Shown here: one piece after another, positions 2,772 to 59,640 of the stretch
How positions within the stretch are numbered: the first letter of the stretch is position 1
Layout of the letters: each line of letters opens with the position of its first letter
From: Eledone cirrhosa
Taxonomy: Eukaryota
Length of the DNA stretch: 64,000 nucleotides
Direction of reading: 5' to 3'
Assembly: GCA_964016885.1 (NCBI GenBank)
Contig: OZ024756.1
Coordinates: 11,160,001-11,224,000 of the forward strand
Notes under the pieces: generated by a model
The model's input: only the letters and a program-made list of their open reading frames with translations
Told to the model about the DNA's origin: nothing
Database searches by the model: none
Position numbers and translations under genes: made by a program

Positions 2772-2821
2772 TATTTTATTATATATATTTCAAGGGCAAC
2801 CAACTTTCATCAGATAAAATA
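2772..2821 (-). ncRNA. Minimal type I hammerhead ribozyme fold
   Basis: Minus strand TATTTTAT-CTGATGA-AAG...CTT-GAAA-TATAT-ATA-ATAAAATA; stem I TATTTTAT/ATAAAATA. Confidence 0.65.
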
Positions 2822-2994
2822 CAGATTTGTTTTATAAATAAATATTGACATACCCGGAAAAAAGACAACCTTAACGGTTGGAGCTTCCTGGATAGTGGAG
2901 ATAATATTTTATTGAGGGTAATACAAAGTTATGAGTGAGTATAGAAAACGTTATGTAAAGGAGATTAACCATATATTACATTTTATATATATAT

Positions 2995-3275
2995 CTAAAA
3001 GTTGGGTTTAAACGATGTTTACAAGAACTAAATAGATTATTACGCAAATTAATAGAGTTCTTACATTTTAGTATAAAGAATATTTCTTCAACGCAAAGGG
3101 AGCAGTTTTTGGATAGCTGTGTATGATGGAGCTTTGGAGATAATTTCCCAAGATAAAGAATAGTTAATATTCTTGGATTTTAAGTTCCATAATAAGTTGG
3201 ATAGAGAAGTTGAAGATTTTTTACCAATATTCGTAAAGGTACATTTATGGTTATTGAAACGGGTATGTATAAAAT
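2995..3275 (-). pseudogene. Penelope-like GIY-YIG endonuclease C-terminal fragment (frameshifted)
   Basis: TRFNNHKCTF...STSLSNLLWNLK...WEIISKAPSY, then in a shifted frame CSLCVEEIFFIL...INLRNNLFSSCKHR; matches the RxxNH / CxLC / NxRxEL-xSxCxH pattern of PLE endonucleases. Confidence 0.85.
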
Positions 3276-4466
3276 GTAATATATGGTTAATCTCCTTTAC
3301 ATAACGTTTTCTATATCCAACCACCTACAACTTCATCCCTCAGATTATATCTATATATGATTCATATATATTTAATTTACTTTCTATTATCCCTATGTCA
3401 TAAATTTCCTTTTATAATAATTATATTCTTAAGATAAATTTTTTAACTTTATAACATTTATGACTTCTTATAAAATAACCTATGGTTTATGTTTTAATTA
3501 TATTCTTAAGATAAATTTATGACTTCTTATAAAATAACATATGGTTTATGTTTTAATTATATTCTTAAGATGAATTTTTTAACTTTATAACATTTGACTT
3601 CTCATAAAAATTTTTTTTTTTTTTAAAGGTTTTTTTATGTATCCTTGGAGTCATTTGAGTCTTAAAAAATCACTTCTAACTTCCTTTATACTTCCTTACT
3701 GTTTTTATAATCTAATTAAGTAGTTATTCCTTTATAAATTTGGAATTATTTGGATGTTTAAGTTTTGACTTACAACTATTAATAAATATAATTTTGCCAA
3801 ACTTACTTTAATCAAATAAACTATACTAGATTTTCTCTAATGTAAAATACTATACATTTAAATAATTTATAATCCATAACATACACATCTAAACCAATAT
3901 ATTATTACTAATACATCTTAATATAATATAAATACTTCTGCTTTCATTTTAATTTTTAATTTTTAATTTTTAATTTTAATATTAAATTAAATTTTTAATA
4001 TTAAATTAAATTTTTAATATTAAAGTAAATTTTAATCTTTAATTTTGATTTTTAATTTTAATCTAATTTTTCAAATTTTTCAACTTATCATTATAAATAT
4101 TATAATCACAACGTAATGAACCCTACATTCTAAATATTATTCTTCCACGTTAATCTTATTTCTTCTTTCACTTAGATATATTTACGCTCTGATTATTTCC
4201 TCGTTCACTTTGACTATCTTCACTATCACTATGTATAATCGTTCTTGCTCCTTCCTTTTCTTCTCTCTCCCTTACGTATCCTCTTCTTCCAACAGTTTAA
4301 TTTAAATAAACCGTTATCTTTTCAACTTTTCGGACACTTATTTCCATACTCACTCATAACTTTGTATTACCCTCAATAAAATATTATCTCCACTATCCAG
4401 GAAGCTCCAACCGTTAAGGTTGTCTTTTTTCCGGGTATGTCAATATTTATTTATAAAACAAATCTG

Positions 4467-4532
4467 TATTTTATCTGATGAAAGCGCACCATAATTTGCC
4501 CTGGTTGCCCTTGAAATATATAACATAAAATA
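4467..4532 (+). ncRNA. Type I hammerhead ribozyme fold (slightly degenerate)
   Basis: TATTTTAT-CTGATGA-AAGCGCACC...GGTTGCCCTT-GAAA-TATATA-ACATAAAATA. Confidence 0.6.
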
Positions 4533-4749
4533 TATATGGTTTTATAAATATAGTTTTCATTTATTAATATATTGTGTATTTACTCCACTAACTTGTTGAG
4601 TGCTTTATATCAGTTATAAAAAATGTTAAGCTTGTTGAATCCCAACAAATTAAATATAACCTCTGCATATATATAGCTTTTAGATATATCTCTCTGGTAG
4701 AGAACATTAAGAACCCAGAGAAGATTATGAAGTAGGCAGGAAGCCGCTA

Positions 4750-57997: not shown

Positions 57998-58008
57998 CGA
58001 AGATTCAT
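55708..58008 (-). CDS. RTE reverse transcriptase (5'-truncated, open frame) with three C-terminal C2H2 zinc fingers
   Basis: NYRGISLLS, QSGFR, FVDLTKAFD, GVKQG, LLYADD, FVYLG, LLYACETW, RLRWSGH; CSVC..H..H, CQTC..H..H, CRLC..H..H. The first residues (MNL) come from the flanking duplication. Confidence 0.93.
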   Translation of the reverse strand: MNLRVRRSLSQMKDQWWSEKAGEIQTASDCNNTKLLYSLLREVYGPSSSLVTPIRSRDGKELLRDSQGILRRWREHFDDLLNQPSVVSEDFLNLIPESPVKVALAEPPTLVEVAVAISKLNSGRSPGMDGIHAELLQYGGERLLQHLHSLFGRIWANESVPEDWRDAVMVVLYKGKGNRNDCGNYRGISLLSVVGKVLCRVLLDRLLTHIADCVLPESQSGFRVGRGTTDMIFSARQLQEKCIEQGLDLYQVFVDLTKAFDTVNRDALWKVLQKLGCPDKFLALVRSFHDDMKAWVNVGGNMSEPISVKNGVKQGDIPAPTLFAIYFAMVFCIAFRNCEHGVYIRYRTSGSIFNIRRFAAKTKVFTSVIRDLLYADDCDLVAHTESDMQHILNVFSDACTALGLTVSLKKTVVMYQPAPGRQYTEPNIYVYGKRLGVVDQFVYLGSTVNRYGNLDSEISLRIRKASDAFGKLERRLWGRRDICRRTKVRVYRACVLSCLLYACETWVAYRRHLKQLERFHQMCLRRIHGVRWRDHISDVEILESSMCDSIEALVLKQRLRWSGHLARMKDSRIPKQLFYGELVKGKRPPHKPKKRYKDSLKASLKDANISADTWENIAADRNKWRKTVYEGKVAFEASRIAHEKVKRDVRKGIAVALPDGEGPPMFLTCSVCARLCLSKAGLESHLRSHKVRPVVDYQAAVGDATHHACQTCGRECKSAGGLKRHAKVHELQPQPTIPSKCFGCRLCARHFGSLAGLKSHIRSQHC

Positions 58009-58033
58009 TCACCATCGTTCTTGTCAACGCTCC

Positions 58034-58360
58034 GGGAACTGATTCTGGTTTGATTTCTACAGCTGGATGCCCTTCCTAACACCAACCTCATTTACAGTGA
58101 GTGCTGAGTGCTTTTTTTCCATGATGCCTCCACGACCACTTTACATTGTGGGCTGGGTGCTTTTTTGCCGTGGCACCTCCATGACCACTTTACAGTGGAA
58201 TGATAGGGACCCCAGTCCTGTCATCTCATTTCTACAGCTGAGTAAACTGGAGCAATGTGAAATAAAGTGTCTTGCTCAAGGAAACAATACATCACCCAGT
58301 CTGAGAATTGAACTCACAACCTTTCGATTGCAAGGCCAATGCTCTAACCACTGAGCCATG
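58034..58360 (-). mobile_element. SINE family A (inside the right copy of the duplication)
   Basis: Appears identical to 55020-55347. Confidence 0.9.
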
Positions 58361-58970
58361 TTTATATATATATATATATATATATATATATATATATATA
58401 TATATATATATATATATACACACACACATTAGATTTTTTATTTCATTGTTTTAACACATATATATATATATATATATATATATATATACATACATATATA
58501 TATATATATATATATATATATATATATATATATATATATAAAGTTAATATGTCTTAGGGTACCAGGTACCCCCAGAAATACATAGGTTGTCTATGATTCA
58601 AGGTGGTTCGATGGTATCCATAGGGTATCTAATGTTTTGCAAAATGAAACTGTACAGTAAGGGCCATCTGAGTAGGTAAATATTTATATTATACTTTTTA
58701 ATTTTAATTAATTTTAATTTTATTTTGAAAAATTGGTTGAATTTTACTTGTTCTGCTTATCTTGAGATATATATATATATATATCAATATATATATATAT
58801 ATATATATATATATATATACCGTAAACTTTTGGTAGATTTATCTATATATATATATATATGTATATGTATATGTATATGTATATATATATTGATATGTAT
58901 ATATATATATATATATATATATATATATTGATATATATTGATATATATATATATATATATATATATATAT

Positions 58971-59640
58971 ATAAATGAGAGGTATAGAGATTGTTTTAGC
59001 AAGAAGCTAACGGCATTCTATAACATATATGCGACTATAACGTCAAGATGGGAAAAGTAGTTAACGAAAGATTTAGGAAAAATAACTCAAACTCATCTCA
59101 AAATCATCCACAGAATTTAGTAAAATCCAGGGAAAAATCTATAGACCTTTAACTCATGATAAAATAAAGTTTGAAACACTTATCCTTCAATTTGGAATAA
59201 CATCAAATGCTCTGTATAGTCTTAAAAGACTATTTCATGAAAACTTTCAGTGGAGATGGTCACGGTTGGATTTCATTCATCAGCAGAGCTCAACAGAAAA
59301 CCAGGGCTCTCACAGTAATATAATCCGAAAAAGGGAATTCTAAAACTGGCTAGTTCACCTTCATGTGTAATTATGAAAAAGCACATGAGGAAAAAACGGG
59401 GCTAGTGACGTCAGGATGGAAGTGAATGTTTATTTACAAGAAATAGCAGTCAAATACATTCTGAAAAAAACTCTACAAAAGGAGTTCAGCAAAATAGCAA
59501 TAATTATCACAGTTTTTATGAAAAAAACTGGGATTAGTCACAGATAGTTTAAGCACTCTAGGAAAAGAATCCGAGTATAAATATAAATGAGAGGTATAGA
59601 GATTGTTTTAGCAAGAAGCTAACGGCATTCTATAACATAT
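58971..59640 (-). mobile_element. Terminally redundant ~612-bp non-coding element with a central hammerhead (retrozyme/pLTR-like)
   Basis: ATAAATGAGAGGTATAGAGATTGTTTTAGCAAGAAGCTAACGGCATTCTATAACATAT at 58971 and 59583; diverged partial copy at 61735-61981. Confidence 0.75.
59209..59289 (-). ncRNA. Canonical type I hammerhead ribozyme with all three stems paired
   Basis: Minus strand GCTCTG-CTGATGA-ATGAAA...TTTCAT-GAAA-TAGTCTT(TT)AAGACT-ATA-CAGAGC. Confidence 0.85.

What the first reader, a model, noticed from the sequence alone, without database searches (positions are those of the whole stretch)
2772..59289. About ten additional, sequence-divergent hammerhead folds with compensatory stems across the window
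Seen: CTGATGA...GAAA...NUH cores at ~2810(-), 4475(+), 9535(-), 9603(+), 11908(+), 35983(+), 38241(-), 47939(+) and 59280(-), plus degenerate ones at 9430(-), 18345(+), 27385(-), 27501(+) and 59880(-). Stem I differs in sequence yet pairs (TATTTTAT/ATAAAATA, ATAC/GTAT, ATTC/GAAT, GCTCTG/CAGAGC, GTAGTC/GATTAC). Several are followed closely by AATAAA, and many sit in inverted arms within (TA)n. Inference: a diverse community of PLE/retrozyme families that repeatedly target TA microsatellites; if this region is intronic, sense-strand copies could cut the host pre-mRNA.
Basis: partly seen in the sequence, partly recalled or inferred. Interest (0 to 1): 0.75.

Follow-up and report, generated by a model that had tools for sequence, protein, structure and literature searches.

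The report
Penelope hammerheads with altered catalytic cores
These are hammerhead (self-cutting RNA) motifs at the ends of a known class of jumping genes that crowd this animal genome's TA repeats; most are predicted to cut only in pairs and so would likely spare host transcripts, and two unrelated abundant families carry the same two-letter change in the cutting core, which makes it testable whether these elements need the cut at all.

Summary
The motifs are real: 15 strict type I hammerheads in the window against 0.03-0.1 in shuffles. Nine belong to the 310-bp array. They form about 11 repeat families. Three or four of these are 3' ends of Penelope-like elements (Hydra clade, plus one Neptune/Nematis-like), and one is a 630-nt retrozyme. 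Inverted arms and (TA)n targeting are published PLE anatomy, including for Octopus. The window is typical: about 85 motifs per Mb, roughly 250,000 genome-wide. Host pre-mRNA cutting is unsupported. No host exon was found. Only 1 of 9 motifs folds actively as a monomer. Myosin and dynein gene spans hold 30 sense and 48 antisense motifs (p=0.054), a skew like that of ribozyme-free SINEs. New here: two 'degenerate' sites are family-wide core variants. One is U3-A8. The other is U4C+A6U (CCGUNGA), in 1,391 exact copies and both pLTRs of near-intact elements, and it recurs in 946 copies of an unrelated family. Cleavage is untested. This scan has reported the same PLE/retrozyme system before, on other DNA of this genome.

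The parts
2732..3261 (-). 3' fragment of a Hydra-clade PLE (family A): endonuclease C-terminus (3261-2988, frameshifted) and an internally deleted 3' UTR ending in (TA)n
   Evidence: 87-88% identical to aa 641-732 of the 743-aa ORF in L083
2772..2821 (-). Type I hammerhead, family A; helix II shortened by a 16-nt deletion; palindromic helix III
   Evidence: strict hit; family form
3264..4700 (+). Inverted 5'-truncated arm of family A with the long 3' UTR and the extension that leads into the ORF start of full-length copies
4467..4532 (+). Family A hammerhead, broken in this copy (U16.1 lost)
9402..9439 (-). Hammerhead with U3-A8 core (UUGAAAA), G10.1-C11.1 and ACCGGU palindrome; the core is the majority state of the family
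   Evidence: 14 homologues
9480..9546 (-). Family B hammerhead, inverted twin of 9603
   Evidence: strict hit; arms 9479-9552 and 9589-9662
9595..9661 (+). Family B hammerhead; 3 of 20 family loci adjoin Hydra-like ORF remnants in the inverted arm
11904..11961 (+). Family C hammerhead (U.U at the base of helix II); no ORF link found in 20 loci
   Evidence: relaxed hit
18345..18398 (+). Family H copy truncated at the core; helix I 5' strand missing
21480..24097 (.). 310-bp retrozyme-like array with 8 (+) and 1 (-) hammerheads; neighbouring feature, source of the GTAGTC/GATTAC stem
25736..25780 (+).
   Evidence: strict hit; recurs in samples
27338..27391 (-). Family H copy, core CCGAUGA, helix I unpaired
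27501..27554 (+). Family H inverted copy, GAAA lost
33400..33830 (+). Broken Hydra-like endonuclease remnant upstream of the 35983 3' UTR, separated from it by later SINEs
   Evidence: 84% to L078, where it precedes the same 3' UTR
35978..36066 (+). Family D hammerhead with a 60-nt helix II region; its subfamily core is CCGACGA (U4C), and this copy's CUGAUGA is probably CpG decay
   Evidence: relaxed hit
38191..38248 (-). Decayed relative of family C
47935..47981 (+). Family E hammerhead, very short 5'-truncated copy between (TA)n; no ORF link shown
   Evidence: strict hit; 44 homologues
58964..59642 (-). One unit plus 67 nt of a young 630-nt non-coding tandem element (retrozyme) in (TA)n
59209..59289 (-). 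Hammerhead with an 8-bp helix III; the only motif predicted to fold actively as a monomer
59637..60172 (.). Two-armed pLTR fragment of a Neptune/Nematis-like PLE in (TA)n
59855..59890 (-). Minimal-hammerhead-shaped motif; family core CCGUUGA (U4C+A6U); this copy also has C3U

Best explanation
The motifs are type I hammerhead folds at the 3' ends (pLTRs) of many Penelope-like retrotransposon families and of short non-coding repeats, which sit in (TA)n with fixed 3' ends and inverted 5'-truncated arms, and most would likely cut only when two copies pair in a tandem transcript. Shown: the motifs, their families, ORF linkage for families A and I (and by adjacency B and D), the fixed ends and the genome-wide density. 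Inferred: a tandem precursor is transcribed, two short palindromic helix III segments pair, and cleavage releases a unit-length RNA that may be circularised. The PLE GIY-YIG endonuclease nicks (TA)n and the RT copies the RNA from two start points. These points lie about 50 and 140 nt (family A) or 259 nt (630-nt family) beyond the cleavage site, so the template must be uncleaved or circular there. The solitary, truncated, often inverted copies seen in the window are mostly inert by-products. For the CCGUNGA families I favour a slow but still selected ribozyme (about 0.5) over a dead relic (about 0.35) or a fold kept for protein binding (about 0.15).
For: Enrichment over shuffles. L083 is a full-length element: (TA)n, pLTR with the family A hammerhead, 743-aa ORF with RWR, DKT, CxCX5C, GIY-YIG and CxxC/CxH, 3' UTR, then a second, damaged hammerhead. 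This matches the Hydra clade (PMC8557442 section 11; Hydra-1_Obim with (TA)n and a hammerhead). L295 and L296 have RVT_1 and GIY-YIG ORFs between two pLTRs of the 59880 family. Fixed 3' ends: family A at about 50 nt (17) or 140 nt (10) of 33 motifs; the 630-nt family at 259 nt in 15 of 20 loci, three of which are one array. Helix III is fully self-complementary in 17 of 21 families. Only 1 of 9 motifs has the active fold as its monomer minimum. A single PLE min-HHR did not cleave in vitro, and dimers did so weakly (PMC4209133). Across canonical, U4C and U4C+A6U subfamilies of family D, helices I-III stay paired, with changes on both sides at helix II positions 3 and 5 (only 3 double-variant copies in hand).
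Against: No cleavage or expression data. No ORF link was found for families C, E, G (9430), H or 25741. For family C, 0 of 20 loci had a Hydra hit. Only two PLE proteins were available as queries. No Rfam hammerhead match. Only 4 of 21 family representatives have G10.1-C11.1 when helix II is read in the descriptor's best-scoring register. Clade assignment rests on motifs, not on a tree. Copy counts reflect a few master elements, so core uniformity within a family is not evidence of selection. Folding energies ignore tertiary contacts and proteins.
Confidence: 0.85

Rival explanations
1. Sense-strand intronic copies cut host pre-mRNAs often enough to affect gene expression.
For: A weak antisense excess in 19 myosin and dynein gene spans: 30 sense vs 48 antisense strict motifs (p=0.054), and 15 vs 27 single-strand insertions (p=0.09). 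Xenopus retrozymes are depleted in introns (bioRxiv 10.64898/2026.07.22.740005). The 59283 family can fold as a monomer and occurs in sense inside a myosin span (L103). Conserved intronic hammerheads exist in amniotes (PMC6155905).
Against: Density in gene spans (78 per Mb) equals the genome sample (85 per Mb). Family-supported counts are 32 vs 45 (p=0.17). Motifs with a stable helix III are 7 sense vs 9 antisense, no more skewed than the rest. Ribozyme-free SINEs in the same spans skew as much (148:93, 105:58, 77:83). Fourteen insertions carry both orientations, and such a pair folds into a 74-bp duplex. No host exon was found in the window or 40 kb either side.
Confidence: 0.12
2. The CCGUNGA motifs are catalytically dead, and these PLE families amplified without any self-cleavage, so the hammerhead is dispensable for EN+ PLE transposition.
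For: A6 changes strongly lower activity (A6C below 0.1/min) and U4C lowers it in vitro (PMC3088659). The family with near-intact ORFs has 1,391 exact variant copies and none with a canonical core on the same stems (0 of the first 100 listed). Naiads proliferate without canonical hammerheads (PMC8557442).
Against: The same double change occurs in two unrelated families. C3, G5, G8, A9, GAAA, UH and all three helices are kept. A6U alone appears in only 59 copies, about the level expected from CpG decay of the double variant.
Confidence: 0.35
3. The non-coding hammerhead families are viroid-like RNA replicons inserted by something other than PLE enzymes (for example RTE LINE RT).
For: Several families have no ORF link. 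RTE LINEs with long ORFs lie in the window.
Against: They share (TA)n targets, fixed 3' ends, variable 5' truncation and inverted arms with the ORF-bearing PLEs.
Confidence: 0.08
4. The motifs are chance matches in AT-rich, repeat-rich DNA.
For: Most motifs do not fold better than their shuffles. The relaxed descriptor has a few false positives (1-4 per 390 kb).
Against: 15 hits vs at most 1 in shuffles; 33 vs 0-1 on independent DNA. Each motif examined recurs as a repeat family.
Confidence: 0.01

Closest known systems
Hydra-clade C-terminal EN+ PLEs, including Hydra-1_Obim of Octopus bimaculoides (Craig et al. 2021, PMC8557442)
   Same: RWK-like, DKT and CxCX5C motifs; no CCHH; (TA)n target; hammerhead in the pLTR; inverted 5'-truncated copy; extension at one end
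   Different: Family A is about 4 kb with a 1.5-kb 3' UTR, where Hydra elements are generally under 3 kb. Its hammerhead differs in sequence from the listed Hydra-1_oBim motif. The paper reports a small number of families, whereas the endonuclease fragment has 41,649 first-look candidates here.
[quoted passage not shown]
   Same: Type I; short palindromic helix III; long helix II; great sequence diversity within a genome; opposite-strand pairs; U3-A8 variant
   Different: Helix II regions of 30-60 nt; frequent U.U, G-U or A-U at 10.1-11.1; U4C and U4C+A6U cores, which were not found in the one readable supplement file that lists motifs; a far higher count than the 2,000-9,000 per genome reported
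Metazoan non-LTR retrozymes (PMC7229834; bioRxiv 10.64898/2026.07.22.740005)
   Same: Non-coding tandem units with a type I hammerhead (310-nt and 630-nt families)
   Different: The 630-nt unit is longer than the 150-450 bp of PMC7229834 but within the 51-972 bp of the preprint, and it has an 8-bp helix III; circular RNA not shown here
Natural hammerhead core variants (Perreault et al. 2011, PMC3088659)
   Same: U3-A8, U4C and a change at A6 occur in nature
   Different: A6C singly in a phage and U4C in a viroid; the U4C+A6U pair was not seen in the passages read or in search

Membership tests
Type I hammerhead ribozyme | CUGANGA, GAAA and UH in type I order with helices I-III | tested here: met
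   Strict for 2813, 9538, 9603, 25741, 47939, 59283 and the array; relaxed for 11908, 35983
Type I hammerhead ribozyme | Same features for 4475, 38244, 18345, 27391, 27501 | tested here: not met
   U16.1 lost, helices broken or helix I strand missing; these are decayed members of hammerhead-bearing families
Type I hammerhead ribozyme | Canonical core for the 59880 family | tested here: not met
   Core CCGUUGA in 1,391 exact copies, canonical 0; filed as hammerhead-shaped variant only
Type I hammerhead ribozyme | Match to an Rfam hammerhead model | tested here: not met
   No hit at gathering score in the window, none at E<=10 in two stretches
Type I hammerhead ribozyme | Site-specific self-cleavage 3' of H17 | not testable with these tools
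   Needs an in vitro assay
PLE minimal hammerhead (PMC4209133) | Short palindromic helix III | tested here: met
   17 of 21 families fully self-complementary; only the 15.2-16.2 pair was required, though scoring favours longer pairing
PLE minimal hammerhead (PMC4209133) | G10.1-C11.1 pair | tested here: inconclusive
   G-C in 4, G-U in 5, U.U in 5, A-U in 4 of 21 representatives; present in the 9430, 59880 and family D motifs
Hydra-clade PLE (family A) | RWK motif, DKT, CxCX5C linker, C-terminal GIY-YIG without CCHH, CxxC and CxH | tested here: met
   Read from the ORFs against PMC8557442 section 11; RWR in place of RWK; Pfam gave no RT or GIY-YIG hit
Hydra-clade PLE (family A) | pLTR with hammerhead, (TA)n target, inverted truncated copy | tested here: met
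Hydra-clade PLE (family A) | Placement in the Hydra clade on an RT tree | not tested
   No reference sequences in hand
Neptune/Nematis-type PLE (59880 family) | GxKF, DKG, RT, C-terminal GIY-YIG with CCHH | tested here: met
   GPKF, DKG and VVY-x3-CDKC-x3-YIG in L295/L296; RVT_1 E 2e-11, GIY-YIG E 9e-5
Neptune/Nematis-type PLE (59880 family) | CX2-5CxxC linker and tree placement | tested here: inconclusive
   Linker reads C-x4-C-x6-C; no tree made
Non-LTR retrozyme (59283 family) | Non-coding tandem units each with a type I hammerhead | tested here: met
   630-nt tandems in L049, L051, L056-58, L061, L062; no ORF of 90 aa or more in the window copy
Non-LTR retrozyme (59283 family) | Expression as circular RNA | not testable with these tools
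   No RNA data were obtained
Non-circularly permuted (SGC/CSG/GCS) hammerhead (PMC10085705) | Blocks S, G, C in a non-circular order | tested here: not met
   None in the window; 1 SGC, 1 CSG and 3 GCS in 1.5 Mb against 0.7, 0.3 and 2.3 in shuffles; the descriptor may miss short-stem forms

The most novel reading that the evidence does not exclude
CCGUNGA (U4C plus A6U) is a natural, convergently evolved hammerhead core, fixed in recently active autonomous Penelope-like elements of two different clades, where the second change is tolerated or compensated only after the first. Such elements would either transpose with a rewired slow ribozyme or show that cleavage is dispensable. The host genome carries roughly a quarter of a million hammerheads, more than any count I found in the papers read, and tolerates them in sense inside essential genes.
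Probability: 0.35. Interest if true: 0.62.

Novelty: new variant of a known kind. Interest (0 to 1): 0.42.

Why it matters
The community itself is known biology. Two points add value. First, the role of PLE hammerheads is an open question (PMC8557442 says it is unclear and that they may merely parasitise PLEs). Near-intact elements whose pLTRs both carry a doubly altered core, beside sister subfamilies with canonical and U4C-only cores, are a natural series for testing it. Second, at about 85 motifs per Mb with sense copies plentiful in myosin and dynein gene spans, this genome shows how such ribozymes coexist with long introns, probably because solitary copies cannot form the active fold.

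Tried and rejected
Rfam scans: the E-value scan was swamped by microsatellite-like miRNA models, and only 150 of 504 rows were visible. No hammerhead at gathering score or in two local scans. The inverted-repeat finder was swamped by (TA)n. I considered whether the 1-kb segment missing from the 2732-3261 arm is a spliced intron and rejected it: the junction shows microhomology, not GT-AG ends, and full-length copies keep the segment. Non-circular permutations: none in the window. A core-agnostic scan of 1.47 Mb found canonical 83 vs 0 in shuffles, U3-A8 5 vs 1.25, U4C 2 vs 0 and U4C+A6U 1 vs 0, so variants are a small minority; a stricter first version found too little to use. Host gene search: 0 Pfam hits in 105 of the 135 non-repeat ORFs flagged in the window +/-40 kb. 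Of the 30 not scanned, nearly all lie inside LINE ORFs. Sequencing runs: no RNA holder listed; no reads were laid. 39074(+) and the other CUGANGA words without a fitting GAAA or helices are not hammerheads. Lunse et al. 2017 on small PLE hammerhead variants is not held and may describe related variants. The supplements of PMC7229834, file 1 of PMC4209133 and the bioRxiv preprint could not be read and may list cephalopod motifs or variant cores.
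Full report
Setting. The window is G000:C17:11160001-11224000 of a 3.0-Gb animal genome. About 88% of it is masked by tandem repeats or by matches to other fetched loci. That it is an octopod is my inference from its repeat landscape and from earlier scan notes; I did not identify it.

Observation. All CUGANGA words were listed and tested with a type I descriptor written after I had seen them. The strict version requires helix I of at least 4 consecutive pairs, 3 of the first 4 pairs of helix II, the 15.1-16.1 and 15.2-16.2 pairs, and H17. 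It gives 15 hits against 0.025-0.1 per shuffled window; the relaxed version gives 17 against 0.125-0.425. Nine hits are the 310-bp array. One intact site (25741) was missed. The sites, the array and 25741 fall into about 11 families. Against this: most motifs do not fold better than their shuffles, and Rfam hammerhead models do not detect them.

What carries them. Window 3261-2988(-) encodes a GIY-YIG C-terminus upstream of the 2813 motif, and 3264-4700(+) is its inverted, 5'-truncated arm. The family has 1,586 first-look candidates. A full-length copy (L083) reads (TA)n, pLTR with hammerhead, 743-aa ORF, 1.5-kb 3' UTR and a second, damaged hammerhead. Its motifs match the Hydra clade (PMC8557442: passages, section 11 and supplementary tables S1/S2 read). 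That paper lists an Octopus bimaculoides member with a (TA)n target and a hammerhead, and describes inverted truncated copies and one-sided tails. A second Hydra-like remnant at 33400-33830 is 84% identical to one that precedes the 35983-family 3' UTR in L078. Three of 20 loci of the 9603 family adjoin Hydra-like ORF pieces. The 59880 family is the pLTR of elements with RT and GIY-YIG ORFs of about 600 aa in frame (L295, L296). The 59283 family is a young non-coding 630-nt tandem unit with 2,244 candidates. No ORF link was found for the 11908, 47939, 9430, 18345 or 25741 families.

Insertion pattern. In the gene and random samples, (TA)4 lies within 200 nt downstream of 75% of 122 motifs against 21% of random positions; upstream the figures are 34% against 20%. 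The 3' ends are fixed: about 50 nt (17) or 140 nt (10) past the cleavage site among 33 family A motifs, and 259 nt in 15 of 20 loci of the 630-nt family, three of which are one array. The 5' ends vary. Because copied DNA runs past the cleavage site, the template was uncleaved or circular at that point (inference). AATAAA is not general: 36 of 122 against 6% at random, with 22 from family A, where it overlaps helix I.

Density. Thirty-nine 10-kb stretches, chosen by me at fixed fractions of the larger contigs roughly in proportion to length (several small chromosomes and unplaced contigs not sampled), hold 33 strict motifs. That is 85 per Mb (bootstrap 46-131), or about 250,000 (140,000-390,000) genome-wide. 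The window's six non-array hits equal 94 per Mb, so it is ordinary for this genome. Published counts I saw are 126,247 in axolotl (PMC7229834, passages; 28 Gb) and about 9,000 minimal motifs in Xenopus tropicalis (PMC4209133, parts 1-2 of 4). Descriptors differ. From recall, Schistosoma may be as dense, so I claim no density record. Searches for octopus with hammerhead terms returned only Craig et al. as relevant. A 2026 Octopus repeat annotation has no occurrence of 'ribozyme' or 'hammerhead' (PMC13282606, passages).

Host cleavage. No Pfam hit marked a host exon among 105 of 135 non-repeat ORFs in 144 kb, so the window may be intronic or intergenic. As a proxy I took 996 kb inside 19 myosin and dynein gene spans defined by collinear exon hits (nested genes not excluded). 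They hold 78 strict motifs, 30 sense and 48 antisense (p=0.054). As insertions, that is 15 sense-only, 27 antisense-only and 14 with both (p=0.09). Family-supported motifs give 32 and 45 (p=0.17). Motifs with a stable helix III are 7 and 9. SINE controls skew 148:93, 105:58 and 77:83, and LINEs 51:48 (SINE counts are BLAST pieces, not independent insertions). A modest antisense excess is therefore possible but not shown to be ribozyme-specific. In folding, the active conformation is the monomer minimum only for 59283 (P of the 15.1-16.1 pair 0.90). The other eight are 4.5-10.3 kcal/mol away, and the 9538/9603 pair folds into one long duplex. This agrees with the dimer requirement reported for PLE hammerheads (PMC4209133; PMC6765202, passages).

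Core variants. At 9430 the core UUGAAAA is the majority state among 14 homologues: the U3-A8 covariation known from Schistosoma PLEs. At 59880, helix I (UCCC/GGGA), an extra U, helix II (GGGC-GUGA-GCCC), GAAA and a loopless AU/AU helix III match the minimal consensus, but the core is CCGUUGA. There are 1,391 exact copies with control 0, and none with a canonical core on the same stems. With positions 3, 4, 6 and 7 free there are 1,228, of which 96 of the first 100 listed are CCGUUGA and none canonical (counted by eye). Both pLTRs of L295 and L296 carry it. In the unrelated long-helix-II family D, one group has 946 copies with CCGUCGA of 1,504 (first 100 by eye: 75 CCGU, 18 canonical, 3 CCGA) and 59 with A6U alone. 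The window's own subfamily has C4 in 82 of the first 100 of 783, canonical CUGA in 11 and decay of the second CpG in 17. So the 35983 copy's canonical look is probably CpG decay. Helices stay paired across these subfamilies (3 double-variant copies only). U4C and A6C are known singly and slow cleavage (PMC3088659, passages). The pair was not found in search or in the readable supplement file of PMC4209133. Lunse et al. 2017 could not be read. These counts reflect few master elements and do not by themselves show selection.

Earlier scan notes on other DNA of this genome reached the same Hydra-PLE/retrozyme reading. Their lead on a permuted hammerhead led me to PMC10085705 (part 1 of 8 and passages) and was tested without a hit in this window.

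Verdict. The community is known PLE biology, and host cleavage is unsupported. The recurrent U4C+A6U core in active-looking elements and the very high motif count are the additions. Interest 0.42.

Noticed in passing
window 21480-24097: 310-bp retrozyme-like array, 7.8 near-identical (+) units plus an inverted arm; related arrays occur in L092 and in a myosin span (L114).
   Followed up: partly
   Followed up: partly
window 55029-55346 and 58043-58360: An RTE LINE with a 766-aa ORF (55708-58008, -) lies between two apparently identical copies of a tRNA-derived SINE of about 310 bp; possibly a large duplication.
   Followed up: no
window 44931-47045(+): RTE-type LINE with a 704-aa open frame carrying RT and a PHD finger.
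   Followed up: no
window 17450-18340 and 41690-42590: Two mariner remnants; the family H hammerhead at 18345 abuts the end of one.
   Followed up: no
window 61764-61979: An 80%-identical older relative of the 630-nt family's 3' part.
   Followed up: no
window 39029-39109: A solitary diverged unit of the 84-bp satellite (1-1574) that contains CTGATGA but no hammerhead.
   Followed up: partly
L194 about 750 nt past a Hydra-like ORF; L095; L264: A repeat family with a GCCGTC-GAAA-CGGC hairpin and no nearby CUGANGA follows a Hydra-like ORF end; its ribozyme, if any, was not identified.
   Followed up: no
L129:7388(-), L163:138(-): Further U3-A8 hammerheads with very long helix II and a 4-5 bp helix III.
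   Followed up: no
sampled loci L096-L234: A C.C mismatch at helix II position 4 recurs in 6 of 21 families and U.U at position 1 in 5 of 21; may mark conserved tertiary or protein contacts.
   Followed up: no
L172:1367(+), L176:2987(+), L230 after a Hydra-like ORF: U4C cores (CCGAAGA) in further unrelated families.
   Followed up: partly
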